From a virus: DNA of 11,682 nucleotides. Positions 1 through 11,682 of the stretch are shown piece by piece; the first letter of the stretch is position 1; each line of letters starts with the position of its first letter. Both the position numbers and the translations under genes were made by a program. The stretch lies in UHGV virus genome UHGV-0087143, one strand, 5' to 3'. The notes beneath the pieces are model-generated. The model made no database searches. It saw only the letters and a program-made list of their open reading frames with translations, and was not told the DNA's origin.

Positions 1-219
1 CTGATCCTGATCGTCTTGCCTTATTGAATATGATTGCTATTTGCATTTAAAATCGAGACCTGGTTTTTCTACTGAAATGATTATGACTTCAATGACCCTT
101 GAATGAAGTCTATTCGGTTTTCTTTAGATGTTCGCCTCACATAATCTTCAAGTGATGTTCCTTACATCTCCCTAGAGCGTTAAGATAGTTAACTGATTGA
201 GTTTTCAGGGTATGAAAGG

Positions 220-885
220 ATGAGCAACACTACCGACATCTTAAGCACGATAGCTGATATCACTATGGCTGGTACTGCTGTATGGGCTGCATTCAAAGCT
301 AATGATTGGTTTAAAACCAAGCGTCTTGAGAGTGCTGAAAACTTCTATAAAGAAGTACACAATCTCCATAAACGTTACTATTCAGCTATCCAATACGTTG
401 AGGATTCAAGAAGAATATTTGATAGTCAGTATGGGTTGCATTCGCCAATATCTGAACCTAAAGACAAGTCATTGCAATGGGGGGTTAAATCGAACTCTTA
501 CAAAATCATCGCTGAACTAGATTATCTGGCATCGTCACTACAAATGATGGATGCAATGGGTAACAAACTTAGCCCTAAATCGGCTTCACTGGTTAATGAT
601 ATGATGGAAGCACATGGACGATTCTGTAATGATGTGATGAACTTCAATGACTCAGTTTGGAAGGTTATAAGGGCAGGTATAACTGAAGAGAACATCCCAC
701 ATACGCGAGGCTATGTGAACGGCGATTACATGACTATCCTTACCAGTATGGATGAACCTGTAAGAATATCTTTTAGGTTAAAAGAAATCAGTTTTAAAGA
801 TTTTTACCTGCATGAAACTACTATGCAGTCAGTAATAACGAGGCTGAAATCGCTTATCGCCAGAACAGGTAAAAACAGGACATAA
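220..885 (+). CDS. Hypothetical protein, 221 aa, with N-terminal hydrophobic segment (ILSTIADITMAGTAVWAAF)
   Basis: Long ORF from ATG 220; weak SD-like AGGG 9 nt upstream; no domain recognised by eye. The 302-520 track ORF is nested in another frame and treated as spurious. Confidence 0.6.
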   Translation: MSNTTDILSTIADITMAGTAVWAAFKANDWFKTKRLESAENFYKEVHNLHKRYYSAIQYVEDSRRIFDSQYGLHSPISEPKDKSLQWGVKSNSYKIIAELDYLASSLQMMDAMGNKLSPKSASLVNDMMEAHGRFCNDVMNFNDSVWKVIRAGITEENIPHTRGYVNGDYMTILTSMDEPVRISFRLKEISFKDFYLHETTMQSVITRLKSLIARTGKNRT

Positions 886-897
886 ACAGGTTAGTAC

Positions 898-1015
898 CTA
901 TGCAATTTAAAGGCATTTTCCCAAGTATCTATGCAATCCTACACAGATTCTATGCAGTATCGATATAGTCTCTTTTTAGCGTAACCTATTGAAATATATA
1001 GAGAATCTATGAAGT
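898..1015. repeat. Cluster of four CTATG(C/A)A(A/G)T motifs (898-906, 929-937, 950-958, 1007-1015) plus a diverged ~22-bp direct repeat (965-986, 1011-1032)
   Basis: Read directly: cCTATGCAAT, tCTATGCAAT, tCTATGCAGT, tCTATGAAGT, all same strand; atagtctctttttagcgtaacc vs gaagtctcttttcagggtaaac. Confidence 0.5.
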
Positions 1016-1496
1016 CTCTTTTCAGGGTAAACTGTATCGTGTTAGTCGTCCCTCTCCAGACACTACATACAGTGCTATATACAGGGATATATAACGATAT
1101 ATAGTTGTTTGACCACTACCAATATTCCCTCAAAGTGACTATCAAGCTGCTTAACAGTTTCCCATGTGAAAGTTAGGAGGTGATGGTTATAGTTCCTTCG
1201 TAGTTCCTCTTAAAAAATCACTTGCAGACACCTTAATCTCTATACAGATTTCATGTAGAACACGATTAGTACGTAGAAGAGTCATTATGTTAAAAACACA
1301 CTGTGTTTATATCAGTACTGATTTATAAGGGTTTTGTGTATTGGGTGATAAGAGGCTATACAGCACCTTGAGAGCATGTCTTCTAAGTCATTGACATATA
1401 AGGTCACAGAAGTTTGTGTCTGTTACAGAGAAAACTGGACAGGACTTCACAGAACTATAAAATGTTACAGCTATTGATAGGTGAAATCTTCTTGAT

Positions 1497-1553
1497 AGAT
1501 GCTATGAAGTGTGATGAAGGCTTCTTGAGGTGGAGTTAACAGATGCTATGAAG
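1497..1553. repeat. Two perfect copies of 13-mer AGATGCTATGAAG, 44 bp apart (1497-1509, 1541-1553)
   Basis: Exact 13-bp direct repeat; shares the CTATGAAG core with the 898-1015 cluster. Confidence 0.6.
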
Positions 1554-2028
1554 AAAGTCAATAGTTGGTTATAGATATTTTAACTGCTTTTGCAAAGGGG
1601 GGTGCTATATCGTGAATCTGGGGTACTTAACAGCCATCAATCATGAGGTAGATTAGGGGTTGGTACAAGCCCAACTAACCGAATCAACTGTGTAGATATT
1701 TTTTAAGATTATCGGTGAAGGGGGAATGCAGAGGGGGTACTATGATTTTTATAAAAATTTTCAGAAGCCAAATAACCATTGTACAGATTTTATACAATCC
1801 TACCAAGCCTCATAGTTGATTCGATTAGGTGATTCAGTAATGAATTACTTCATGAAGCTAATCTCATAGAAAGCTCTGTAGCGAGTTTTAACCCCATTTT
1901 TAGGGGTAGTCTATAGGGATGTACCACCCACCTTAAAATAAAGGGGTAAAATCGCTTAGAATGCGTTACAGAGCGTCTGAGAAGCTATATTCACAGATTT
2001 TACTAAAGTCTCAGACTTCTAAGTAGTC

Positions 2029-2338
2029 TTTTTAACAGGAGGGGTTCCCCTATGGTCACATATCCCCTCTCTCGTTTAGTGGCCCTTGATAGCACCCGAT
2101 TAATAACCTAGAGAGTATGCCTGTAAAACTTCTGTATCAGGTCAACTATAAGAGGTCTGGATATTACCTTGTAAGATTCCTGGTAGTGATTATGCAGAGG
2201 GCTTGATAAGAGTGTTTAACGGGAGGAAGAGATATCTTTTTAACAGGAGGGTTCTTTCTCATGTATCACCCTCTCTTCCCGCTAAGTAAGCTACACAGAC
2301 CTAGAGAACATGCCTTCACAGCATCTATATCAGGTCAG
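2029..2338. repeat. Two diverged ~100-115-bp modules (about 2029-2145 and 2237-2338), each beginning TTTTTAACAGGAGGG
   Basis: Shared blocks in the same order: TTTTTAACAGGAGGG, CCCTCTCT(C)..TTAG, CCTAGAGA(G/A)(T/C)ATGCCT, TCT(G/A)TATCAGGTCA. Related CTCT(C)TCCCG(C/T)T(A/T)AG boxes recur at about 2727-2740 and 2910-2923. Confidence 0.6.
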
Positions 2339-2425
2339 ATTTAGAGGGTTTTGATAGAGTCTGTAAAGGTACTTGACAGGTAACTATGAAGTTGCTAGGA
2401 AGAGCTGTTTAACGGGAGGAAGAGA
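2213..2425. repeat. Perfect 20-bp direct repeat TGTTTAACGGGAGGAAGAGA (2213-2232 and 2406-2425)
   Basis: Exact match read in sequence; a related GTTTAACGGGGG lies at 3239-3250. Confidence 0.8.
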
Positions 2426-2847
2426 ACCATGAAACCGAAGGTAGGTTCTGTCTTAACAGTGAAGTCTTAAGAAATGTCTTGAGAGTTACCTAAACAAGCC
2501 TCTTAAGTAAAAGACAACACTCCAGAAAGAGTGTCTGTTTAACAAACTTCTCAAAAGCTCTTAAAAAGTCTGTTAAGAGAGGGCTATGTGAACATATCAT
2601 ACCATTTTGTCAATGCTTTTGTCTTTGACCTAAATCAATAAAATGTATCGTTTGATATGGTTTTAAGCAAGACGGCTAAAAAAATCTTTTTAGAGGGGCG
2701 CTTCGCTTGGGGTCACTATGTTCTTTCTCTCCCGTTAAGAGGGAAGTTACAGGGACATTTCAAAGCCCTGATAAGGTAAGCCCGATGATAACAGAAACAG
2801 AGGGCAAAACCACTTATCAACACTGTGAACGAATAACGTAAAGGGCT

Positions 2848-2884
2848 GGTTAAGAAGGTCGGTTAAGAAGGTCGGTTAAGAAGG
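2848..2884. repeat. Tandem array, about 2.8 copies of 13-bp unit GGTTAAGAAGGTC
   Basis: Copies at 2848-2860 and 2861-2873, partial copy 2874-2884; related TTAAGA(A/G)GG boxes at about 2464, 2570, 2735 and 2932. Confidence 0.8.
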
Positions 2885-2950
2885 GAGCTTCCCTTTCTTG
2901 GGTGTCGCTCTTCTCCCGCTTAGTGGATAGCTAAGAAGGCTTGAAGTTAT

Positions 2951-3126
2951 CTGTGAAGGTACTGGACAGTCTTATATATTGGGTGATTACAACTCGTTGA
3001 AAAATAAGTATTTTTAGAAATCACTGTTAAGGTTACAGAGTCAACTGTGAAGAGACTTGTCAGTTCTCTATATTGGGTGATTACAACTTATTGAAAAGTA
3101 AGAACTTTTAGAAATTACTGTCAGAG
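2951..3126. repeat. Two copies of a ~82-bp direct repeat (2951-3032 and 3045-3126), period 94 bp
   Basis: Identical 20-mer core TATATTGGGTGATTACAACT at 2975-2994 and 3069-3088 with ~85% identical flanks; partial third copy TATTGGGTGAT at 1339-1349; CTGTRAAGGTACTTGACAG-like heads also at 2361-2379. Confidence 0.8.
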
Positions 3127-3240
3127 AGGTGAATACTTGATAGATACAGCTTTCCGGTTCTGTCAAGCTATTTTTTAATAGATAGCACAAAATGCTAAAG
3201 ATACCCCTATACCATCTCGTACAGGGGGGGTTGAAGGAGT

Positions 3241-3429
3241 TTAACGGGGGTCTGTGTGGTTATCTGTTCTGGTCCTGTCCTTGAGGTCAAACGACCATTC
3301 ACGACCAAACAATCTGAACACGATAAACACTCTGACGATGAAATAGCGAAGTAGTAAGCCTGCAATCAGCCCAACACCTCCACCAGCCCATACATCAGGT
3401 GACCCCAGCTCAGGAGGGAGATTTACCAT
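3241..3429 (-). CDS. Small predicted membrane protein, 62 aa (one hydrophobic helix GGGVGLIAGLLLRYFIVRVFIVF, charged C-terminus)
   Basis: Track ORF on minus strand, divergent from the 3633 gene; weak SD GAAGG upstream; candidate promoter upstream. Could still be a chance ORF. Confidence 0.3.
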   Translation of the reverse strand: MVNLPPELGSPDVWAGGGVGLIAGLLLRYFIVRVFIVFRLFGREWSFDLKDRTRTDNHTDPR

Positions 3430-3514
3430 TCAATGTACCTTCTGTGTGCAATGCAAAAAAACATGTGACCATTCTCGATAGCCACGCTTCATATTTTCCC
3501 TCTCCCATAAACCC

Positions 3515-3544
3515 ATTATACCATAAATGTTAATAAATTGTTAA
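3515..3544 (-). promoter_or_regulatory. Candidate sigma70-type promoter (minus strand): TTAACA, 18-nt spacer, extended -10 TGGTATAAT
   Basis: Minus-strand -10 TATAAT is the complement of 3515-3520, TG of the extended -10 at 3522-3523, -35 TTAACA is the complement of 3539-3544. Confidence 0.4.
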
Positions 3545-3551
3545 AAAATAC

Positions 3552-3580
3552 TTGACATTAGTCTTTGAAACTGCTAGTAT
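3552..3580 (+). promoter_or_regulatory. Candidate sigma70-type promoter (plus strand): TTGACA, 17-nt spacer, TAGTAT
   Basis: TTGACA at 3552-3557 and TAGTAT at 3575-3580 with exact 17-bp spacing, ~50 nt upstream of the 3633 start codon. Confidence 0.5.
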
Positions 3581-3632
3581 TGTATATATAGTTAACAGGA
3601 AATTAACAAACACTAAGAGGGTCAGAATATGA

Positions 3633-4187
3633 ATGCAGGATTCAGAATTTAGAGCGATGCTTCAGGCATCAAGAGAACGCAACAAGCACAACTCCTACGC
3701 TTACACAGACACCCCCACCAGCTACGAAGTACCAGCCTTTTCCAAAACCGAACGTAAAAACATTGAAGCGGTCATTCGTAGCATTACGCCACGAGACAGA
3801 TTTATGCCAGTACGCAAAGAAAAAGAGAATACTTTAAAAACTTTCTTGATGAGCTTTGATTCTTACGAGCAACTACCATCAAAAATTGAAGATGTAATTA
3901 TCGGTACTTGTCGCAGTCTTGGAAGAGATAATTATCACCGGAAGGTTTTTTATTTACTGCGAAGTCTTGATGAGATTAGTTCAAGCACAGTGACGAGCCA
4001 TCTTCAAAGACAAGCAACCAGACTTAGCTACGAATTACCAAGTGATAAATATTGCGCTAACTTAGCCACTATTTGCATGAAAGTTATTGAGACAATTAAT
4101 CATCATGCGGAAGTTGGAAATATCAGCCTTACAACCAGTGAACCAGACTTTGAATTTGACGTATACGCACAAGCAGAGGAATTTTAA
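3633..4187 (+). CDS. Hypothetical protein, 184 aa, first gene of a rightward operon
   Basis: ORF with SD AAGAGG (3615-3620) upstream of ATG 3633; no domain recognised. The antisense track ORF 4062-4442 is treated as spurious. Confidence 0.65.
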   Translation: MQDSEFRAMLQASRERNKHNSYAYTDTPTSYEVPAFSKTERKNIEAVIRSITPRDRFMPVRKEKENTLKTFLMSFDSYEQLPSKIEDVIIGTCRSLGRDNYHRKVFYLLRSLDEISSSTVTSHLQRQATRLSYELPSDKYCANLATICMKVIETINHHAEVGNISLTTSEPDFEFDVYAQAEEF

Positions 4188-4188
4188 A

Positions 4189-4476
4189 ATGGAAAATAAA
4201 CACACACTAACCAGAGTTACAAAGACAGCCTTTGAAGAACTTAACCGAATCAAAAACATTACAGGTCTGCCACACTCAGCAGTGATGAAGCTTGCAATTA
4301 ACCGTGATATTAACGAACAAGATTTGCTTAATAGTCGCTTAGAGGCTGCAAGACACCATATCAGGATTAAGCAAGATGACCTTGATAGTCTGAAATCTTT
4401 AAATGCTTTTGGACTGGATTTAGCAAGGTTGCTAAGCATCAAAATTCACAAGTTAAAGTTAGAGATGGAGGTTTAA
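4189..4476 (+). CDS. Small putative DNA-binding protein, 95 aa, ribbon-helix-helix-like N-terminus plus C-terminal coiled coil
   Basis: Start chosen at ATG 4189 (GAGGA SD 8 nt upstream, directly after the upstream stop) instead of the overlapping in-frame track start 4087; N-terminal TRVTKTAFEELNRIKNITGLPHSAVMKLAI resembles a strand-helix-helix fold. Motif-level only. Confidence 0.5.
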   Translation: MENKHTLTRVTKTAFEELNRIKNITGLPHSAVMKLAINRDINEQDLLNSRLEAARHHIRIKQDDLDSLKSLNAFGLDLARLLSIKIHKLKLEMEV

Positions 4477-4862
4477 TGTATGACTTTTATAAACATCGTG
4501 ACCATTTGGTAAGATTTGACGGTAAAGTCTGGAAAGACGTAACACAAACCAATAAACCCAAGTTTACCCACCAGCAATTAGCCTCAAGATTTGATATCTG
4601 GACTGAAGCACAAAAAGATAATGGTGATTTCGAGTTTATCAGGGGTTTTGATTATGCTTACGAAGACGACCTTAAAGACGCCATTAAATTAATTGAGAAT
4701 TTCAACTCTATTAAAAATGGTGACAAGCACAAAGCCAATGGCAACAGATACGATAAAGATTTAATCATTGATGCAATCACCAAAGGACAATCACAAAGTT
4801 ATATTTCTGAGAAATACGGTTTATCACGCAGTCAATACTACAAGATTAAAGCGTCTGTGTAA
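4476..4862 (+). CDS. Putative helix-turn-helix DNA-binding protein, 128 aa
   Basis: Start ATG overlaps upstream stop (TAATG, translational coupling); C-terminal IDAITKGQSQSYISEKYGLSRSQYYKIK looks like a resolvase/sigma-region-4-type HTH. Confidence 0.6.
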   Translation: MYDFYKHRDHLVRFDGKVWKDVTQTNKPKFTHQQLASRFDIWTEAQKDNGDFEFIRGFDYAYEDDLKDAIKLIENFNSIKNGDKHKANGNRYDKDLIIDAITKGQSQSYISEKYGLSRSQYYKIKASV

Positions 4863-5000
4863 GCCTGTGAGAATGAGTGAGACTCAAAGATGAGCTACCC
4901 TATTACTAAGGTGTCTCACTCCCTCTGTAACCCGCATGGTTACTGGCCTCAGAATGGCTATTTTGGCAGATTTAAGATGTGTTTTTAGAGGATTTTAAAA

Positions 5001-5324
5001 ATGAACAATTACCCGCTACAGATTTTCGTTGATAGCGACACCGCTCTGATGATTCAGGCTTTCAGTGATTCCGGTGTATCAATTGACTTTGACAGGCTGT
5101 TAAGGCTAATGGCTAATAACTCAGAAACAATTGAAGATTTTATTCAGTCGGTGGAGTTTAACGAGCCTCGAATGATGCTACCAATTAAAGACAGCAACAT
5201 GAAAAGATTGGTTATCGAGCAAACGAACAAATACAGCGTTAGCCCTGAAAGATATCTCAAGGCAGCTATAGCAATTTTGTACGCTGACAATATTTTGGTG
5301 ACGGATTCGAAGGTGGTGCATTAA
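5001..5324 (+). CDS. Hypothetical protein, 107 aa
   Basis: ORF from ATG 5001; no domain recognised. Confidence 0.55.
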   Translation: MNNYPLQIFVDSDTALMIQAFSDSGVSIDFDRLLRLMANNSETIEDFIQSVEFNEPRMMLPIKDSNMKRLVIEQTNKYSVSPERYLKAAIAILYADNILVTDSKVVH

Positions 5325-5389
5325 TGGAATTGGTGATTATCTGTTTTGTATTGATTGGTATGATTGCAGGTGCATCTATTAAAGTATAA
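5324..5389 (+). CDS. Possible 21-aa hydrophobic peptide (MELVIICFVLIGMIAGASIKV)
   Basis: ATG overlaps stop of the 107-aa gene (TAATG); strong SD GAAGGTGG 7 nt upstream; entirely hydrophobic. Below the track length cut-off; speculative. Confidence 0.25.
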   Translation: MELVIICFVLIGMIAGASIKV

Positions 5390-5454
5390 ATGTTACCAAT
5401 CTGTTAAAAAGCTGTTGACAAATAACCTTAAGCATGACATAATTTTAATTATGG

Positions 5455-5481
5455 GAGAGTAATTCTCTCTTATATTTTTTT
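5455..5481 (+). terminator. Candidate rho-independent terminator for the 3633-5389 operon
   Basis: Stem GAGAG/CTCTC (5455-5459 / 5465-5469), loop TAATT, followed by TATATTTTTTT. Confidence 0.4.
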
Positions 5482-5659
5482 CAATAATCCGATGGATGGA
5501 TGGATATTCTGAGTTGGTGAGGTATGTTCTATACCGAACATTCTGAAAGGTGCAATGCTTTTCGCTACATGGCCTCTTATATAACCTGAGAGGTCATCTC
5601 GAAAAGTACTCTTGTTCATTCGTTTGAATCCTTCAGAAGTTTTAATTTCTTCACCTTAT

Positions 5660-5702
5660 GAATAGCCCTTTATAAGAAATTATCTAGGGCTATTCAGTTT
5701 TT
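5660..5702 (+). terminator. Candidate stem-loop/terminator: 10-bp stem GAATAGCCCT / AGGGCTATTC, 16-nt loop, then AGTTTTT
   Basis: Perfect 10-bp inverted repeat at 5660-5669 and 5686-5695; T-run only on the plus strand. Confidence 0.35.
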
Positions 5703-5776
5703 AAAAAGCATACTTGGCAAACCGCCTTTTAAGCCTCTTCTAAGTTCGAGGATGTCAGGTGTGCTTTTTAAAAACT
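5696..5776. promoter_or_regulatory. Perfect 15-bp inverted repeat pair AGTTTTTAAAAAGCA (5696-5710) / TGCTTTTTAAAAACT (5762-5776), 51 bp apart; operator-like
   Basis: Exact reverse complements; each contains the palindrome TTTTTAAAAA; ends 36 bp upstream of the 5812 start codon. Confidence 0.4.
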
Positions 5777-5811
5777 GAAACATAAATTATCTTAGAAGAG
5801 GAAAGGTATTA

Positions 5812-6516
5812 ATGGCTATCCGTGATGAAAATGAAATGATTATTGAAAGCCGACCAAGTGCACTTGATATTCACGAATTAACTTTGCGTGAATCTTTTGA
5901 TAGAGCTTGGCGGGAATCACACGAAGTAAATAAAGGTCCATATATTCCACCAGAACCACTCGAGATTCCAAGAGTTGAAATTGATTTTTCTATGAACGAA
6001 CAGTGTGAACTTGATTTGAAGTTGAAGCTACAACGCCGATATTTCCAAGCTATTAAAGACTCTCAAGAAGCAATGAGAAGTGTTTACGAGAAAATTCAGT
6101 CCAAGCTTGAAGACGAAATCGACGAAATGGCTATTTTGATGGAGCTTCAAACCAATTCTTATGCTTATTTCTCTCGACTAGACCGTGACGGTTGGGGGTA
6201 TGACCCTGTAGAGATTGGTAAAGTGATTGCAGATTTACCAGAAGGTCAAAGGGTTATTCGTACGGAAAGGGCCATCAGAGCGCCACATCGACTGTCTCTA
6301 ATTGTTGCTGATAAATCACAAGCTGAGCTTGAAGAAATTGCCAAAGAGAAACTGATGAAAGCAAGAGAAAATGAGATTAATTTGCTGAAATCAAGACTGG
6401 CTAAGCTGATTAGTGACCATCAAGCGCTGGCTAAGGAGTACCGTCAAGAGTTGGCACAGATTATCAGCTTCAATGATTTTCTGAGTGTTCCACGAGAATT
6501 TAGCAAGGCTGTTTGA
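5812..6516 (+). CDS. Hypothetical acidic protein, 234 aa, with C-terminal coiled-coil-like region
   Basis: ORF with SD GAGGAAAGG upstream of ATG 5812; no domain recognised. Confidence 0.65.
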   Translation: MAIRDENEMIIESRPSALDIHELTLRESFDRAWRESHEVNKGPYIPPEPLEIPRVEIDFSMNEQCELDLKLKLQRRYFQAIKDSQEAMRSVYEKIQSKLEDEIDEMAILMELQTNSYAYFSRLDRDGWGYDPVEIGKVIADLPEGQRVIRTERAIRAPHRLSLIVADKSQAELEEIAKEKLMKARENEINLLKSRLAKLISDHQALAKEYRQELAQIISFNDFLSVPREFSKAV

Positions 6517-6539
6517 TTATGAATTAAAAGAGGTGATTA

Positions 6540-6752
6540 ATGTTTGAAGAACGTTTAGAGACTATTCGGTCTGTTTGCGAAAGACTCCAGCTACAACCAA
6601 ATAGACAAAAGCTACGAATTAAGAATAACCGTCATTACATCACCTCACACAAACCAAAAACACGCAAGATTCCAAAGTGGTGTCTTGATAAATTACCAAG
6701 TGATTGTCAGATTGTCGGTGAAGATGGTAATTATTATCTTGTCAGACATTAA
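6540..6752 (+). CDS. Small basic protein, 70 aa (three Cys, Lys/Arg-rich centre)
   Basis: ORF with SD GAGGTG (6530-6535) before ATG 6540; function unknown. Confidence 0.5.
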   Translation: MFEERLETIRSVCERLQLQPNRQKLRIKNNRHYITSHKPKTRKIPKWCLDKLPSDCQIVGEDGNYYLVRH

Positions 6753-6802
6753 AAAAGAATTGGTTGGGTATATGAGATAGGTTCTATCGAATCTATAGTA
6801 CG

Positions 6803-6844
6803 GGGAGAGATTATCGATATTATTCGGTAGTTTCTCCCTTTTTT
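6803..6844 (+). terminator. Candidate terminator: stem GGGAGA/TCTCCC around a 24-nt loop (containing palindrome TATCGATA), followed by TTTTTT
   Basis: GGGAGA 6803-6808, TCTCCC 6833-6838, T6 at 6839-6844; loop unusually large so strength uncertain. Confidence 0.4.
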
Positions 6845-6893
6845 GTATATGAGGATAGTCTTCTATCCGAAGTCTATGAGGTGAAAAATATGA

Positions 6894-8978
6894 ATGAGCA
6901 AATTTACAGTTGATAGTTTTATTGTTGAGCTGGGCTTCAGTGAAAACGTTATTAAGGGATTGCAAAGAGTTGAAAAGGCAGCTTTGCAGTCAGCACAAAG
7001 AATTGAACGTAATTTGAATAGAGCGTTTAAGGTCGATACCAAGCAACTTGACAGCAATTTAACGGCTTCTTTAAAGTCAATGGAAGGGAAAATTAATAAG
7101 ACCTTTGACAAGATTGAGCAGCGTCTTAAAAACACTAGAGCGTTTAAGATTAAAACGGAAATTGAGGATACTTTAAAGCCACTTAGACAGCCAAGACAGC
7201 CACGAATTAGCGGCAACAGAGCAATCACAGCAGCTTATTCAGCGAATATGAGCAAGTTAAAGGGCTTTGACCCTATTTTGCAGAAATACATCAAATCTCA
7301 GTTTTACGGGCTATCTGCTAAAGCTGGGTCAATGGATAATTCAAAATTCAATGAGAAGTTAGCTCAGCTAAATGCTTCAGTCAGAGAAGCAATCACTAAA
7401 GCCAGAGGTCATACATCCACCAGCAAAAACAATCACAGTGAAAATGCTTCAAATGGTTTAGATGTATTAGCTACAAGTGCAATCAAAGCAGGTACAGCCA
7501 TTTATAGTTTTCAGACAGCCTTAGAAGCTTATAGGAAGGTTATGGAAGTTGGTCTGAAAAAAGAAGCATCACAACGAGCGGCACAATTCGTTTTAGGTGA
7601 TGAAGGTGCTAAACGAGCTACAGAATTTGTTAAGAATCTTGCTGATAGTAGTGGTGTAGACCAGATTGAAACATTAAGCAGTTTTGCTAAGTTTTCCGCT
7701 GGTGCTGGTGATATGAATGCAGACCAGAAAGAATCCTTATTTTCTAATGTGATTGGTACATCCCGACTAATGGGTTTAAGCACTGATGAGATTAACGGGA
7801 TTCTAAAAGCTTTCGAGCAGATGGCGAGCAAGGGCAAGATTCAAGCTGAAGAATTACGCGGTCAGTTAGGGGACAGAATGGCAGGTGCTTTTCAGTTATT
7901 TGCCAGAAGTCTTGGGATGACTACAGAAGAATTAGACAAGGCCATGAAGGACGGTAAGGTTCTTTCTAAAGATGTTCTTCCTAAAGTATCCGCTGAAATG
8001 GGAAGGATGATTGATAAAGCTGGTGGATGGGAAAAGATTATTAACTCTACTCAGACGCAGTTAGGCCGCCTTTCTAATTCATGGAATAATAATCTGGCCT
8101 TAATGTTCGACGGTTCACAGGAAGGTTTAACAGACTTTACAAGGTCACTGACTAATTTACTTAATTCACTAGGTGGTCAATCTAAAAATCTTGGTGAACA
8201 TTTTGGCGACTTGATGAAAAGCATGTCAAACGGTGTTGATGATTTAACCACGATTAGCTACCGAGCACAGGGATTCTTTGACAGAGTGACCCTTGCTTAC
8301 AGAGAATTAAATGACACTCAAAAAGCTGTAGCTGATGGTATCGCAAATGGCCTGTTAAGTGCATTAAAGGGGCTTGCTGGTATAGTCGCTGTAAGGTCTG
8401 GGATTGGTGCTGTAGGTGGTATCTGGAACTTAATTAGGGCTATTTCCACGCTTGGAAATGTAGCAAATACAGCAGCAGGAAGAATCAATTCACGTTCTGC
8501 TGGTAGTGTTGAAGGTGGTAAAGGAAAATTATCTGTAGCTGATGCAATTACCAAAGTAATGATTGTCGGTATGGCAACTGATGTGATTAACTCCATTGTT
8601 AAACCACTCTATGAACGCCAGATGAGTAAGTCAGATAATCCAATTGATAAAGTTGTAAGGTCAAAGGTGGAACCCACAGACCAAGCATTGACTGGTGACA
8701 TGAACTCTTTAGCTGCTGTTTTATGGGCTATGGTTCAGGGCAAATCAAAAGATGTTCCACAGTTTTCACCGGAAGCATTAAATAATCTGAAAGGTCGAGT
8801 GGAAACATTCACACAAGATTTAAAGGTTATCAAGCCGTCAGTAAATATTCAGCCTCAGACAATCAATATCACAACTCAGACGGTACTTGATGGAAAGGTT
8901 ATTGATGAAAGAACCACATCGCATATTAATCGTATGCAGGAAGATACCTTGATTAGCTCAGCTTACCCAGAGGAATAA
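6894..8978 (+). CDS. Phage tail tape measure protein-like, 694 aa
   Basis: Internal segment ...GLSTDEINGILKAFEQMASKGKIQAEELRGQLGDRMAGAFQLFARSLGMTTEELDKAMKDGKV... matches the conserved tape-measure core (ELRGQLGERLPGA-type motif); helical N-terminus and Gly/Ala-rich hydrophobic segment (GIANGLLSALKGLAGIVAVRSGIGAVGGIW) typical of tape measure proteins; SD GAGGTG (6878-6883) before ATG 6894. The four antisense track ORFs inside it are treated as spurious. Confidence 0.8.
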   Translation: MSKFTVDSFIVELGFSENVIKGLQRVEKAALQSAQRIERNLNRAFKVDTKQLDSNLTASLKSMEGKINKTFDKIEQRLKNTRAFKIKTEIEDTLKPLRQPRQPRISGNRAITAAYSANMSKLKGFDPILQKYIKSQFYGLSAKAGSMDNSKFNEKLAQLNASVREAITKARGHTSTSKNNHSENASNGLDVLATSAIKAGTAIYSFQTALEAYRKVMEVGLKKEASQRAAQFVLGDEGAKRATEFVKNLADSSGVDQIETLSSFAKFSAGAGDMNADQKESLFSNVIGTSRLMGLSTDEINGILKAFEQMASKGKIQAEELRGQLGDRMAGAFQLFARSLGMTTEELDKAMKDGKVLSKDVLPKVSAEMGRMIDKAGGWEKIINSTQTQLGRLSNSWNNNLALMFDGSQEGLTDFTRSLTNLLNSLGGQSKNLGEHFGDLMKSMSNGVDDLTTISYRAQGFFDRVTLAYRELNDTQKAVADGIANGLLSALKGLAGIVAVRSGIGAVGGIWNLIRAISTLGNVANTAAGRINSRSAGSVEGGKGKLSVADAITKVMIVGMATDVINSIVKPLYERQMSKSDNPIDKVVRSKVEPTDQALTGDMNSLAAVLWAMVQGKSKDVPQFSPEALNNLKGRVETFTQDLKVIKPSVNIQPQTINITTQTVLDGKVIDERTTSHINRMQEDTLISSAYPEE

Positions 8979-9212
8979 ACAATGTTAGAGCTACTAATAT
9001 TTATTGCCACACATGGCAACCTATTAATCTTTATCTAGTATGACGACTCAACTATGAATAGTCGAATGCTACGTGAAATCTCCTGAACAGATATACCCAC
9101 TGAAAAATAGAATTTACGTAGCTCACGCTTAACAGAGAAAATACTTATATATCAAAGGCTTGGTTAAAAATGACTGAAATACACTAAGTCTTTGAAATCA
9201 AAGGAGAATTTA

Positions 9213-9986
9213 ATGATTTACTCTAATCAGATTCGTTACAGTGGCAAAGATGGCATCTATTTCCACTTAAGAGATAATGTAGATGCCTTCTTAACTTTAT
9301 CAGCAACTGAGAACATGGAATTTGATAGCCCTATGCAGGTGACTACACAGAACATGCAATCAGGGCAAACCGTCACAGATAATGTGCAAAGAGCACCCAG
9401 AACAATCACTATTAGTGGTGTCGTTGTAGTTGGCTATGAAGGAAGCTTATTATTAACTCGTCAGGGTCAATTAGTAGAAAACTTCATCGACACCCTTGAA
9501 AGCTGGCGTGACCAGAAGCAGATTATTTCGGTCATCTGTAAAGATGGTATCAAGATTGATGACTCCATTATTACAAGTTTTAAAGCCTCTAAAGATGTTG
9601 GTATTTCAAATGGTCTAAGAATCCAGCTAACTTTTCAGGAAATTAACTTTAAAGCTGTTGTGGGGCAGACTGATATCTCGGCTGCAACTGGAAAAGCCGC
9701 GACTACGAATGATGGTGGTGTGACCAGTAAAAAGAATGCGGGTAACGTGACCACTGAACGCAATAACGCACCTATGCTGATGTGTCAGGAACTGTACAGT
9801 TACTCAGCATCTGAGCTATCTGATGAAGCGCTAAGGGTCCGTAGCAATTGCTCTAAAAATGTCACGGTGAAAGATGGTGTAAGCACCTTCACAGCCTCAG
9901 CTAATGAGCAGGCTTCAAAAGTGCTTAAGTCGGGTAATGCTTTACGGAAGTTTTCTGTGAATCCGAATAAGAAGGGCACTTATTGA
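9213..9986 (+). CDS. Hypothetical protein, 257 aa, downstream of the tape measure gene (possibly tail-associated by position only)
   Basis: Start chosen at ATG 9213 (SD AAGGAG 6 nt upstream) instead of the in-frame track start at 9192, which is a TTG codon; no domain recognised. Confidence 0.65.
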
Positions 9987-9990
9987 GACA

Positions 9991-10013
9991 TAAAAAGGGG
10001 CTTCATAGCCCCT
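9991..10013 (-). terminator. Rho-independent terminator for the recombinase gene, shared between convergent genes
   Basis: GC-rich stem AGGGGC/GCCCCT (9996-10001 / 10008-10013), 6-nt loop; on the minus strand the stem is followed by a U-run (complement of A-run 9992-9996); lies between the 9986 and 10019 stop codons. Confidence 0.6.
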
Positions 10014-10018
10014 GAAAA

Positions 10019-11539
10019 TTACAGTTGATAAGCGTCAATATCCAGTAGCTCTTTATCAGCAATTTCAAAGATTGGTGACCCATCATTTAGCGGTAACGGG
10101 TTTGTAGGTATGGTGATTTCAGTGTCGTTCTGTAGCGTTACAGTTACCGAATCCTTACCCAATGTAAGCCCTTTTAGATGTTTGGACAAAATCAACTGAC
10201 ACTCGACACGACCCGCTTTAGTTGTCAGGTCAATATCTTTAAGCTGGGGTAGTTCCTTATCAGTGAGTGAAGCCTTACGCCTCATGTTATCAATAGTAGT
10301 CTGTAGTTCTGTGCGCTTCTGGTTAAGTCCCTTCACCTGTGCTTTCAACTCTGTAATGTCATCCATTTCAAGAAGTAGGGCGGTAGCTTTCTTGATTCTG
10401 GCTGTGACAATTTCAACCTCATGCTGTAGAGATGCAATCTTCCCCTCTGCTTCTCCATCATTCCCCACGTCAATCATCCCCAGAAAATTATCAATCATCC
10501 ATCGGTCAAACGGTTTACGCTTCAACGGTGGAACATCACAGCGACCGTCTAAGTGGTTATTGCACCTGTAGACCCCTGCATACTTATTCTTGGTTCCGGT
10601 AGGATGGACACTAGCCCCACACTGACACCGGAATAATCCCTTGAAGATGTTAATCGTTAATGGGTTATCACTTGCAGGTGTGCGGCCTTTACGATTCTTG
10701 TCGAGAATCTCTTGAGCTTTATTGAACGTTGCAGCATCTATAGCGGCTTCGTAGTAGTTCGGTATAGCGGGGCGGTCATTACGCTGTGATGCTGGTAACG
10801 TGCCTATTGTTGTCTCCGACCTTAAGATGGTGCGTACAGAATGGACGCTAAACCCATTAGCATCTTTACGGCGACTAAACGACTTTATACCGTTGCTTTG
10901 AAGGTGACGGGCGATGTTATGCAGACTTTCACCACTTAGCAGCAGCTTGAAAATCAGTCTTACAGTCTCAGCGTGTTCATTGAGTTTGAGAGTATCGGGG
11001 TCAATCCATCCGGGAACCATCTTTGTTAAACGTTGTTTACCAGCAAGGGCAAGTTTTGCACGTTGTTTCCACTTCTCGCTAACACGGAAAGACTTCTGCT
11101 TACTCTCCTGATGCGCTAGGTAGCTTTTAACCCGCTGAATGATTGAGATTCCTAAATCATCGGATAGAGCATCCCTTGTGTAGATTAGCCCATCCTGTAG
11201 AGTGTGAATCTCGATACCATGAGCAATAATGCGATTCATCAAGGCTTCTGTTTCAAGATGCTCTAATCGGCCTATACGGTCGATACTCTCAACTAGCAGA
11301 ATTGTACCTCCTGGAAACTCCCCAGCCTCAATACGGGCTAACATGTCACCAAACTGACCAGTAAGGTGTTTACCTTTGTAACCGGATAGACCCTCATCAC
11401 TGAAAGACGCTACTACTTGAGCATCGCTATTCTTCTTCAACCATTGTTTGAACAGGTCGTTTTGTCGTCTGGTTGAATCAGCACCTTCAGCACCTTGTGT
11501 GGCTGATGAGAATCTCAAGTATGTTATTACGGTTCTCAC
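10019..11539 (-). CDS. int: Large serine recombinase (serine integrase), 506 aa
   Basis: N-terminal resolvase-type catalytic domain with the serine nucleophile motif (YLRFSSATQ) and downstream LLVESIDRIGR; central recombinase region; Cys-rich zinc-ribbon-like segment (CQCGAS...YRCNNHLDGRCD); C-terminal coiled-coil-like region. GTG start with SD GGGAG 9 nt upstream. Antisense track ORFs 10263-10571 and 10914-11111 treated as spurious. Confidence 0.9.
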   Translation of the reverse strand: MRTVITYLRFSSATQGAEGADSTRRQNDLFKQWLKKNSDAQVVASFSDEGLSGYKGKHLTGQFGDMLARIEAGEFPGGTILLVESIDRIGRLEHLETEALMNRIIAHGIEIHTLQDGLIYTRDALSDDLGISIIQRVKSYLAHQESKQKSFRVSEKWKQRAKLALAGKQRLTKMVPGWIDPDTLKLNEHAETVRLIFKLLLSGESLHNIARHLQSNGIKSFSRRKDANGFSVHSVRTILRSETTIGTLPASQRNDRPAIPNYYEAAIDAATFNKAQEILDKNRKGRTPASDNPLTINIFKGLFRCQCGASVHPTGTKNKYAGVYRCNNHLDGRCDVPPLKRKPFDRWMIDNFLGMIDVGNDGEAEGKIASLQHEVEIVTARIKKATALLLEMDDITELKAQVKGLNQKRTELQTTIDNMRRKASLTDKELPQLKDIDLTTKAGRVECQLILSKHLKGLTLGKDSVTVTLQNDTEITIPTNPLPLNDGSPIFEIADKELLDIDAYQL

Positions 11540-11611
11540 GGTGATAAACTCCCATGCAATTGATTATCATTTAAAGATGAACTTATAAACGTTATGGCTA
11601 ATGCTACAATG

Positions 11612-11640
11612 CCGAATAGCTACAATACAATGACCCTTGA
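11612..11640. other. Candidate recombinase attachment-site junction (right end), partner of 90-117
   Basis: CCGAATAG, 8-nt spacer, CAATGACCCTTGA, ~75 bp upstream of the recombinase start; sequence beyond 11640 turns GC-rich (CCTCGCCGCTTCCCCTGGCCGACG). Confidence 0.3.
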
Positions 11641-11682
11641 TTTACCTCGCCGCTTCCCCTGGCCGACGTTACTTTCGGTCTG

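What the first reader, a model, noticed from the sequence alone, without database searches (positions are those of the whole stretch)
90..117. Left-end candidate att junction: CAATGACCCTTGA, 7-nt spacer, CTATTCGG
The 13-mer is identical to one 75 bp upstream of the recombinase start at the other end of the window, and the flanking 8-mer is the reverse complement of the 8-mer beside that copy, at mirrored spacing. This is the geometry expected for attL/attR of a serine-integrase element: shared core around the crossover, with element-side arms as inverted repeats. It would place the element at roughly 90-11640. A single 13-mer match in 11.7 kb is not significant on its own (about one expected by chance); the positions and the mirrored 8-mers make it worth testing.
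Basis: inference. Interest (0 to 1): 0.6.

Follow-up and report, generated by a model that had tools for sequence, protein, structure and literature searches.

The report
Mobile island attachment site at tonB
The repeated 13-mer is the real left junction of an 11.5-kb mobile island that a large serine integrase inserts exactly at the start codon of the E. coli iron-uptake gene tonB; the mechanism is ordinary, but I found no description of the site or the island it bounds.

Summary
Confirmed. CAATGACCCTTGA occurs at 90-102 and 11628-11640. The 8-mers CTATTCGG (110-117) and CCGAATAG (11612-11619) are exact reverse complements. The spacers are 7 and 8 nt, not equal, but the pair is exactly symmetric about the A|C step inside the 13-mer (95|96).

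The decisive test was the empty site. Window 1-102 joined to 11641-11682 is an uninterrupted 144-mer in unoccupied E. coli genomes, namely the yciI-tonB intergenic region running into tonB (ATG at 92-94 and 11630-11632). Of 5,426 complete E. coli genomes, 225 carry the attR junction and 225 carry this recombinase. In about 5,200 others, homology starts exactly at 11628. A Citrobacter genome has the same arm and core beside its own tonB.

The recombinase (10019-11539, minus strand) has all three large-serine-recombinase Pfam domains. A core variant (A at position 9, in attL only) travels with a nearly identical island into divergent host backgrounds. That indicates recent site-specific transfer and places the crossover 5' of core position 9.

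Integration keeps the tonB ORF intact but moves its native promoter 11.5 kb away. The island carries Felix-O1-like tail genes and may be an undescribed phage satellite. That last point is unproven.

The parts
1..89 (+). Host DNA: yciI-tonB intergenic region (B arm of attB). It includes the promoter-like site TTGAAT-18-TAAAAT at 24-53, which I take to be the native tonB promoter.
   Evidence: Contiguous with tonB in unoccupied genomes. Promoter-like site. yciI lies upstream in all related loci.
90..102 (+). attL core: the 13-nt identity CAATGACCCTTGA shared by attP and attB. It contains the tonB start codon (92-94). At attL it opens only a 4-codon stub, ATG ACC CTT GAA TGA (92-106).
95..96 (+). 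Predicted crossover dinucleotide AC, at the dyad centre of the reconstructed attP. The attR counterpart is 11633-11634.
   Evidence: Best dyad centre of attP, with 17 of 28-30 half-site positions matching. The A9 variant in attL only bounds the crossover to core positions 1-8. The exact dinucleotide is an inference.
103..123 (+). Element-side P' arm of attL (ATGAAGTCTATTCGGTTTTCT), including the 8-mer CTATTCGG at 110-117.
   Evidence: Among the 9 loci with a scorable attL and in L012 and L015-L017, these 21 nt are invariant except for a G/A at 105. Three different cargo types diverge immediately after 123.
220..885 (+). First cargo ORF (221 aa, no family match). In the integrated state it lies downstream of, and co-oriented with, the displaced tonB promoter. 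It is replaced by other cargo in some relatives.
10019..11539 (-). Large serine recombinase (506 aa): Resolvase, Recombinase and Zn_ribbon_recom domains. The predicted nucleophile is Ser11, in the motif YLRFSSATQ.
   Evidence: Pfam scores of 66.3, 60.6 and 28.1 bits are all above their gathering scores. phrog_95 integrase, E = 1.4e-81. The motif is conserved in the 28%-identical wrbA-site homologue.
11540..11627 (.). Intergenic region between the recombinase gene and the attR core; it forms the P arm of attR. The 38 nt at 11590-11627 are invariant and include the 8-mer CCGAATAG (11612-11619). Candidate tonB-directed promoters are TTGATT-18-TATAAA (11560-11589) and the extended -10 TGCTACAAT (11602-11610).
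   Evidence: Invariance across 12 loci whose recombinase alleles are 88-97% identical at the nucleotide level. Promoter candidates were found by eye and located. The scan tool found only GTGATA-18-TATCAT at 11541-11570, which is not above chance.
11628..11640 (+). attR core: the second copy of the 13-mer. It carries the start codon of the intact tonB ORF (11630-11632).
11641..11682 (+). Host DNA: the tonB coding sequence continues (MTLDLPRRFPWPTLLSV...). This is the B' arm of attB.
103..11640 (.). The integrated island: 11,538 bp counting one core copy (equivalently 90-11627).
   Evidence: Distance between the core copies. Relatives are 11.2-11.8 kb when intact.

Best explanation
Positions 90-117 are attL, the left recombinant junction of an 11.5-kb integrative island. 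The island was inserted by its own large serine recombinase (LSR, 10019-11539, minus strand) into an attB that spans the start codon of tonB. The right junction, attR, is at about 11590-11660.

The island's circular attP would read ...CCGAATAG CTACAATA CAATGA|CCCTTGA ATGAAGT CTATTCGG.... It is an imperfect palindrome whose two arms bind an integrase dimer. attB is the host sequence ...GACTT CAATGA|CCCTTGA TTTACC.... The enzyme makes 2-nt staggered cuts at the centre, predicted to be the AC at 95-96, and exchanges half-sites. That yields attL (host B arm + island P' arm) and attR (island P arm + host B' arm).

The island carries its own copy of the leader plus ATGA, so the tonB reading frame is regenerated at attR. 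tonB's native promoter stays at attL, 11.5 kb away, where it now faces the island's first gene. tonB must therefore be transcribed from the island's right end.

Shown: the junctions, the empty site, site specificity, the recombinase type, arm conservation, transfer between host backgrounds, and a crossover 5' of core position 9.

Inferred: the exact dinucleotide, the replacement promoter, and present-day excision with whatever directionality factor it uses.
For: (1) Empty site. Window 1-102 + 11641-11682 is an exact 144-mer in an unoccupied genome. The same 144-bp two-piece match lies under tonB in other records.

(2) Population. 225 of 5,426 complete E. coli genomes have the attR junction and 225 have the recombinase. 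In the rest, homology starts at query position 289, which is window 11628.

(3) All occupied loci examined have the junction at the same base. That includes Citrobacter sp. ANG330, which has a diverged tonB B' arm.

(4) The recombinase has the Resolvase, Recombinase and Zn_ribbon_recom domains above their gathering scores.

(5) attP dyad. The best symmetry centre falls between core A6 and C7, with the 8-mers at +/-15-22.

(6) Arms behave as units. Left cargo switches right after the 21-nt P' arm, and the 38-nt P arm is invariant while the recombinase gene varies by 3-12%.

(7) L012 and L015 carry islands differing by 12 SNPs in 11.7 kb, plus one IS. Their host flanks differ from 32 nt upstream of attL (26 differences in 1500 nt) and from 68 nt downstream of attR (19 in 571 nt).

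(8) Four genomes have attL core CAATGACCATTGA with a normal attR core, on three recombinase alleles and two cargo types. About 5,390 other genomes have C at that position.

(9) A syntenic island with a 28%-identical LSR sits in wrbA codons 6-8 with a 7-bp core. It supplies a new wrbA start codon, which is the same strategy.
Against: No circular attP junction was found in IMG/VR or JGI metagenome contigs. The island's right end is absent from IMG/VR in any form, so for IMG/VR the negative says little; no such control was run for the metagenome contigs.

No recombination directionality factor is recognisable in the island.

attB itself shows little dyad symmetry about the proposed centre (8 of 30).

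About 30% of occupied sites hold truncated recombinase genes (68 of 225 below 80% coverage). Many copies are therefore fixed remnants.

The recombinase has no close characterised relative. The best PDB match is phiC31 integrase at E = 0.85.

The replacement tonB promoter is not supported above chance by the scan.
Confidence: 0.93

Rival explanations
1. The junctions are genuine products of serine-integrase insertion, but this copy is now an immobile relic. It would be kept because tonB depends on the island's right end for expression, and it would no longer excise.
For: 68 of 225 occupied genomes have truncated recombinase genes. Remnants of 2.1-4.4 kb exist, as do O111:H8-type loci that keep only 291 nt of the recombinase gene plus attR beside an intact tonB. 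No attP junction was found in the collections searched. No RDF was recognised.
Against: The window's recombinase ORF is full length with an intact catalytic motif. Both arms are intact. A nearly identical island (12 SNPs in 11.7 kb) sits in host backgrounds that differ by 2-3% right up to the att sites, which implies recent site-specific transfer in this family.
Confidence: 0.25
2. The 13-mer pair is a target-site duplication made by a transposase, and the 8-mers are the transposon's terminal inverted repeats.
For: A direct repeat flanks the element and inverted repeats lie near both ends. PGAP labels the homologue of ORF 5812-6516 'transposase' in some genomes.
Against: The same base-exact site is used in 225 genomes and in Citrobacter, so insertion is site-specific. 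The inverted repeats are 7-8 nt away from the direct repeat rather than abutting it. ORF 5812-6516 has no transposase family match. The A9 variant shows that the right part of the attL core is element-borne and travels with the element; in a duplication both copies would come from the target. An LSR gene sits at the end of the island, the usual place for one.
Confidence: 0.02
3. The 13-mer match and the mirrored 8-mers are coincidental.
For: Random windows of this size and composition contain about 2 repeated 13-mers somewhere.
Against: Only 1 of 2000 random windows share a 13-mer between their two terminal 150-nt stretches. The repeat coincides exactly with the breakpoints of homology to about 5,200 empty sites.
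Confidence: 0.005

Closest known systems
Large serine recombinase (serine integrase) attP/attB systems of temperate phages, such as phiC31, Bxb1, A118, R4, phiRv1 and SPbeta SprA
   Same: The protein has a catalytic Resolvase domain, a Recombinase domain and a zinc ribbon. The att sites are short. attP is an imperfect palindrome. The identity between attP and attB is short and surrounds a central crossover. The recombinase gene abuts attP. Integration needs only the integrase and two sites of about 40-50 bp, while excision needs an RDF (abstract of PMC12286644 as listed; PMC6002521). From my own knowledge, cores of about 12-16 bp are also reported for R4, phiRv1 and SPbeta.
   Different: There is no close sequence relative among characterised or solved integrases. 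The host is a gamma-proteobacterium, whereas from my own knowledge most studied LSRs come from Gram-positive hosts. attB spans a start codon, and the element regenerates it. The carrier is an 11.5-kb island without capsid or terminase genes, not a complete phage.
[quoted passage not shown]
   Same: Both are small islands integrated by an LSR (PMC6002521). This island has a long ORF-free, repeat-rich region and no recognisable RDF; in PLE 1 the RDF, PexA, is encoded by the helper phage (PMC6002521). This island also has a sequence link to a virulent myovirus group: 93-96% nucleotide identity over about 500 nt to more than 200 Felixounavirus genomes, and a syntenic TMP-baseplate gene pair.
   Different: No homology to PLE was tested or shown. 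[quoted passage not shown] Helper dependence, induction and packaging are entirely untested here. This island carries tape-measure and Dit-like tail genes.
Gene-interrupting LSR elements that regulate gene integrity (SPbeta in spsM, skin in sigK, A118 in comK)
   Same: An LSR-borne element is inserted inside or at a protein-coding gene (abstracts of PMC5499854 and PMC7192596 as listed; PMC7192596 also searched).
   Different: Here the ORF is not split. The crossover lies in codon 2 and the island supplies ATGA, so a full-length tonB is annotated in every occupied genome examined. What is separated from the gene is its promoter.
Sibling island at wrbA (L007, E. coli FAM21845)
   Same: The cargo is syntenic, with TMP, baseplate, HNH and the ORF-free region. 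The LSR is homologous over its full length, lies at the same end, and is divergent from the target gene. Insertion is at the extreme 5' end of a host ORF, with the reading frame kept open.
   Different: The recombinases are only 28% identical. The core is 7 bp (GTGCTTT) inside codons 6-8. The island replaces the first residues of WrbA (MAKVLVLYY becomes MSVKARILVLYY) instead of restoring them exactly.

Membership tests
Large serine recombinase att system | N-terminal serine-recombinase catalytic domain with the nucleophilic serine motif | tested here: met
   Pfam Resolvase at residues 4-162, 66.3 bits against a cutoff of 23.3. The motif Y-L-R-F-S11-S-A-T-Q aligns with YIRWSTKEQ of the wrbA-site homologue. 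Naming Ser11 as the nucleophile is an inference from motif position.
Large serine recombinase att system | Large C-terminal region with a recombinase domain and a zinc-ribbon domain | tested here: met
   Pfam Recombinase at residues 187-282 (60.6 bits, cutoff 21.1) and Zn_ribbon_recom at 298-342 (28.1 bits, cutoff 25.3).
Large serine recombinase att system | Coiled-coil motif inserted in the zinc-ribbon domain, which controls directionality | not tested
   No coiled-coil predictor or structure model was run. Residues of about 360-420 look heptad-like by eye only.
Large serine recombinase att system | Integrated element flanked by attL and attR that recombine back to a contiguous attB; short identity between attP and attB | tested here: met
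   The exact 144-nt empty site was found. Homology breakpoints lie at 102 and 11628. The identity is 13 nt.
Large serine recombinase att system | attP is an imperfect inverted repeat centred on the crossover | tested here: met
   The best dyad centre falls inside the core, with 17 of 28-30 half-site positions matching and exact 8-mers at +/-15-22.
Large serine recombinase att system | Crossover at a central, non-palindromic dinucleotide; identity elsewhere in the core is not required | tested here: inconclusive
   The attL-only A9 variant travels with the island. This bounds the crossover to core positions 1-8 and shows that a mismatch at position 9 is tolerated. The AC at positions 6-7 is predicted from symmetry only.
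Large serine recombinase att system | The integrase alone catalyses attP x attB recombination; excision needs an RDF | not testable with these tools
   This needs in vitro or in vivo recombination assays. No RDF candidate was identified.
Phage satellite (PLE-like / PICI-like) | Small integrated island lacking a full set of virion and replication genes | tested here: met
   The island is 11.5 kb. The only recognisable functions are the LSR, TMP, a Dit-like protein and a weak HTH. No capsid, portal or terminase match was found in Pfam, PHROGs or NCBIfam.
Phage satellite (PLE-like / PICI-like) | Induction, replication and packaging depend on a helper phage | not testable with these tools
   The evidence is circumstantial only: 93-96% nucleotide identity of 9237-9746 to Felixounavirus genomes, and a syntenic TMP-baseplate pair. 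No copy of the recombinase or of the island's right end was found in the IMG/VR viral contigs.
Transposon with target-site duplication | Insertion at many sites, each with its own duplication; terminal inverted repeats abut the duplication; a transposase is present | tested here: not met
   A single site is used in 225 genomes and in Citrobacter. The inverted repeats are offset by 7-8 nt. No transposase family match was found.

The most novel reading that the evidence does not exclude
The att site bounds a previously undescribed family of enterobacterial phage satellites, or anti-phage islands, tied to virulent Felix-O1-like myoviruses; a functional analogue of Vibrio PLE.

Features that fit this reading:
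- integration by swappable serine-integrase modules, each targeting the extreme 5' end of a host gene (tonB, wrbA);
- carriage of the island's own tape-measure and baseplate genes;
- a 2.3-kb ORF-free repeat region;
- rewiring of tonB, which puts the iron-regulated tonB promoter in front of island cargo and drives tonB from an island promoter.

Excision might be triggered by a helper-encoded directionality factor.
Probability: 0.3. Interest if true: 0.75.

Novelty: new member of a known kind. Interest (0 to 1): 0.45.

Why it matters
The result turns a guess from raw sequence into a mapped attL/attR/attB/attP set for a new, divergent large serine integrase from E. coli. The core is defined, both arms are delimited, and the crossover is bounded. 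Serine integrases with known sites are useful genome-engineering tools, so this pair is directly testable.

Biologically, about 4% of complete E. coli genomes have tonB cut off from its native promoter by this island. These include EHEC O111:H8-type strains that keep only a remnant. tonB is the energiser of siderophore, haem and vitamin B12 uptake, and of several phage and colicin entries. Its regulation in carrier strains may therefore differ from the K-12 textbook picture.

The island's tail-gene homologues, and its recent exchange with virulent Felix-O1-like phages, point to a possible unrecognised satellite or defence family in a very well studied species.

Tried and rejected
1. attP (circular junction) searches. 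A 45-mer and 28-mers, including the A9 variant, were scanned in IMG/VR and JGI metagenome contigs with 0 hits. The island's right end is absent from IMG/VR altogether, and no recombinase relative is there. For IMG/VR the negative is therefore uninformative; no such control was run for the metagenome contigs.

2. Fur box in the island's right end. The best match to the 19-bp consensus at 11556 is 13 of 19. That places it among 7 windows scoring at least 13 in this sequence, which is not convincing. I dropped it as evidence.

3. Sigma-70 scan of 11380-11682. It found one site, GTGATA-18-TATCAT, which is no more than shuffles give. The promoter candidates I name were found by eye.

4. PDB sequence search with the recombinase. 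Nothing at E <= 0.001. There was only a marginal phiC31 integrase hit at E = 0.85.

5. Rfam on the whole window. There was only a sub-threshold rhtB hit at 5643-5712.

6. PADLOC and NCBIfam on the cargo ORFs. No defence family was found.

7. Literature. Ten searches covered tonB plus a serine recombinase or prophage, satellites plus Felix O1, Felixounavirus or Ounavirinae, and LSRs in E. coli. I also checked the supplements of the E. coli defence-island atlas. None describes an element at tonB. Only the ymdF/wrbA hotspot is listed there.

8. Ungapped comparison of host flanks gave meaningless mismatch counts because of indels. It was redone with MAFFT.

9. A search for attB half-sites resembling attP half-sites at shifted register found no match of at least 14 of 30.

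Full report
**The observation.** CAATGACCCTTGA occurs exactly twice in the window, at 90-102 and 11628-11640, on the same strand. CTATTCGG (110-117) is the exact reverse complement of CCGAATAG (11612-11619).
- The spacers are 7 nt (left) and 8 nt (right).
- The right 13-mer begins 88 nt, not 75 nt, from the recombinase start codon at 11539.

The unequal spacers are not a defect. The pair is exactly symmetric about the step between core A6 and C7 (window 95|96), which puts both 8-mers at positions 15-22 from that centre.

However, only 1 of 2000 share one between their terminal 150-nt stretches.

**The decisive test: the empty site.** The window's flanks are the E. coli tonB locus.
- Positions 1-89 are the yciI-tonB intergenic region. 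It holds a promoter-like site, TTGAAT-18-TAAAAT, at 24-53.
- From 11630 the sequence reads ATGACCCTTGATTTACCT..., which translates to MTLDLPRRFPWPTLLSV, the start of TonB.
- Joining window 1-102 to 11641-11682 gives a 144-mer that is present, uninterrupted and exact, in a genome without the element. The same 144-bp two-piece match lies under tonB in other records.

A junction-spanning query (11340-11682) was run against 5,426 complete E. coli genomes. It is covered in full in 225 of them. In about 5,200 others, homology starts exactly at query position 289, which is window 11628, the first base of the 13-mer. On the left, matches from Salmonella and Klebsiella end exactly at 102. The homology breakpoints therefore overlap by precisely the 13-mer. 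None of the related genomes examined shows element sequence left of position 90.

**The enzyme and its specificity.** The ORF at 10019-11539 (minus strand, 506 aa) matches Pfam Resolvase, Recombinase and Zn_ribbon_recom, all above their gathering scores. It also matches the PHROG integrase family phrog_95 at E = 1.4e-81. It has no close characterised relative.

The recombinase gene is found in 225 of the 5,426 genomes, the same number as carry the attR-tonB junction, and always on chromosomes. Citrobacter sp. ANG330 has a 90%-identical recombinase with an identical P arm and 13-mer. There it abuts Citrobacter's own, diverged tonB.

**The arms.** I compared 12 loci whose recombinase alleles are 88-97% identical at the nucleotide level.
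- The 38 nt next to the attR core (11590-11627) never vary.
- In every locus with a scorable attL, the 21 nt next to the attL core (103-123) vary at one position only, a G/A at 105.
- Three different left-end cargoes diverge immediately after ...CTATTCGGTTTTCT.

This is how att arms behave in a mosaic element family.

**Evidence of movement, and where the crossover lies.** Strain 21KM1392 (L012) has attL core CAATGACCATTGA but the normal attR core. The same attL-only variant occurs in at least four genomes. It is found on three recombinase alleles and two cargo types, always with C at that position in attR. About 5,390 other genomes have C there.

L012 and L015 carry islands that differ by 12 SNPs in about 11.7 kb, plus one IS421. 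Their host DNA differs from 32 nt upstream of the attL core (26 differences in 1500 nt) and from 68 nt downstream of the attR core (19 in 571 nt). The same island has therefore entered different chromosomal backgrounds through this site, and the variant base travelled with it.

In attL, bases to the right of the crossover come from the element. So the crossover lies 5' of core position 9. That agrees with the symmetry-predicted central dinucleotide, the AC at positions 6-7. It also shows that identity at position 9 is dispensable, as expected for a serine integrase, which needs only matching central dinucleotides (established knowledge of the family; see PMC6002521, and the abstract of PMC12286644 listed).

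**Consequences for tonB.** At attL the tonB start codon opens a 4-codon stub (MTLE-stop, 92-106). At attR the full ORF is regenerated. If the crossover is at AC, the start codon and leader of tonB in carriers are island DNA.

The native promoter remains at attL. It is now co-oriented with island ORF 220-885, and no terminator-like site lies between them. tonB must then be expressed from the island's right end. Two candidates found by eye are TTGATT-18-TATAAA (11560-11589) and an extended -10, TGCTACAAT (11602-11610), inside the invariant arm. The automated scan does not support a promoter above chance, and a Fur-box match is weak.

Indirect support comes from remnants. O111:H8-type genomes, EH10-18-47 and MS 115-1 keep only 291-753 nt of the recombinase gene plus this region, next to an intact tonB.

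**What the island is.** Its recognisable cargo is a tape-measure protein (6894-8978) followed by a Dit-like baseplate protein (9192-9986). The pair is syntenic with the Felixounavirus TMP-baseplate pair. The TMP is about 30% identical to Felix-O1-like TMPs, which are the best hits among all phages. In contrast, 9237-9746 is 93-96% identical at the nucleotide level to more than 200 Felixounavirus genomes, which implies recent exchange.

There are no capsid, portal, terminase or replication matches. A 2.3-kb stretch (886-3206) has no ORF of at least 50 aa and is full of repeated motifs.

A syntenic island in strain FAM21845 carries a 28%-identical LSR. It is inserted in wrbA codons 6-8 with a 7-bp core and supplies a new wrbA start codon.

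The closest analogue by lifestyle would be the Vibrio PLE satellites, which also use an LSR and borrow their directionality factor from the lytic helper phage (PMC6002521). Helper dependence here is untested. I found no description of this element or this attB in ten literature searches or in the E. coli defence-island atlas.

**Verdict.** It is attL of a serine-integrase island at the tonB start codon: a new member of a well-understood kind of system. Excision was not demonstrated, and about 30% of copies are degraded.

Interest is moderate for the att site itself. It would be higher if the island proves to be a satellite of virulent Felix-O1-like phages, or if the tonB promoter replacement changes iron or phage phenotypes.

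Noticed in passing
window 886-3206: A 2.3-kb stretch has no ORF of at least 50 aa on either strand. It is dense with repeated motifs: TGTTTAACGGGAGGAAGAGA twice, TCTTTTTAACAGGAGGG twice, a GGTCGGTTAAGAA tandem, and an 83-nt pair at 2945 and 3039. RefSeq annotates no CDS in the corresponding gap of relatives L002 and L003; in other relatives homing-endonuclease-like or methylase genes lie in that gap. Rfam finds nothing. It could be an origin, a packaging site or a non-coding RNA region.
   Followed up: partly
window 6894-9986; L011 3743-6768: The island's TMP and Dit-like baseplate gene pair is syntenic with the Felixounavirus TMP-baseplate pair. The TMP is only about 30% identical at the amino-acid level. 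In contrast, 9237-9746 is 93-96% identical at the nucleotide level to more than 200 Felix-O1-like virulent phages, which implies recent recombination between the island and lytic phages.
   Followed up: partly
L007 3896-3925 and 15616-15660 (E. coli FAM21845): The same cargo family occurs with a different 547-aa LSR (28% identical). It is inserted in wrbA codons 6-8 with the core GTGCTTT. The island supplies a new start codon and N-terminus, changing MAKVLVLYY to MSVKARILVLYY.
   Followed up: yes
L008 3000-3392; L009 and L017 (EHEC O111:H8-type 95JB1, EH10-18-47, MS 115-1): These are degraded copies. Only 291-753 nt of the recombinase 5' end plus attR remain, next to IS3-family elements, and in 95JB1 an espM1 effector region. 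tonB is intact. They are natural deletion mutants that delimit what tonB expression needs.
   Followed up: partly
L004 1675-2244 (minus strand) vs L005 1867-2415 (plus strand); also L012, L014-L017: A small (about 185-aa) Resolvase plus HTH recombinase gene sits near the left end of some islands, in opposite orientations in different genomes. This suggests an invertible segment or a separate cargo module.
   Followed up: no
L006 3014-3538; L013 4429-5097; L007 5590-6252: Variable cargo is inserted in or near the ORF-free region. It includes an HNH_3 + AP2 protein (homing-endonuclease-like) and Dam-like N6-adenine methyltransferases. From my own knowledge, such genes are typical of lytic phage genomes.
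   Followed up: no
window 24-53 and 220-885: After integration, the putative native tonB promoter points into the island's first ORF (221 aa, no family match), with no terminator-like site between them. That cargo gene may have become iron-regulated.
   Followed up: no
window-wide, compared with L002-L014: The island family is strongly mosaic. Per-segment identity to relatives ranges from about 70% to 100%, with coverage from 14% to 100%. The TMP and the 5812-6752 block are the most variable.
   Followed up: partly
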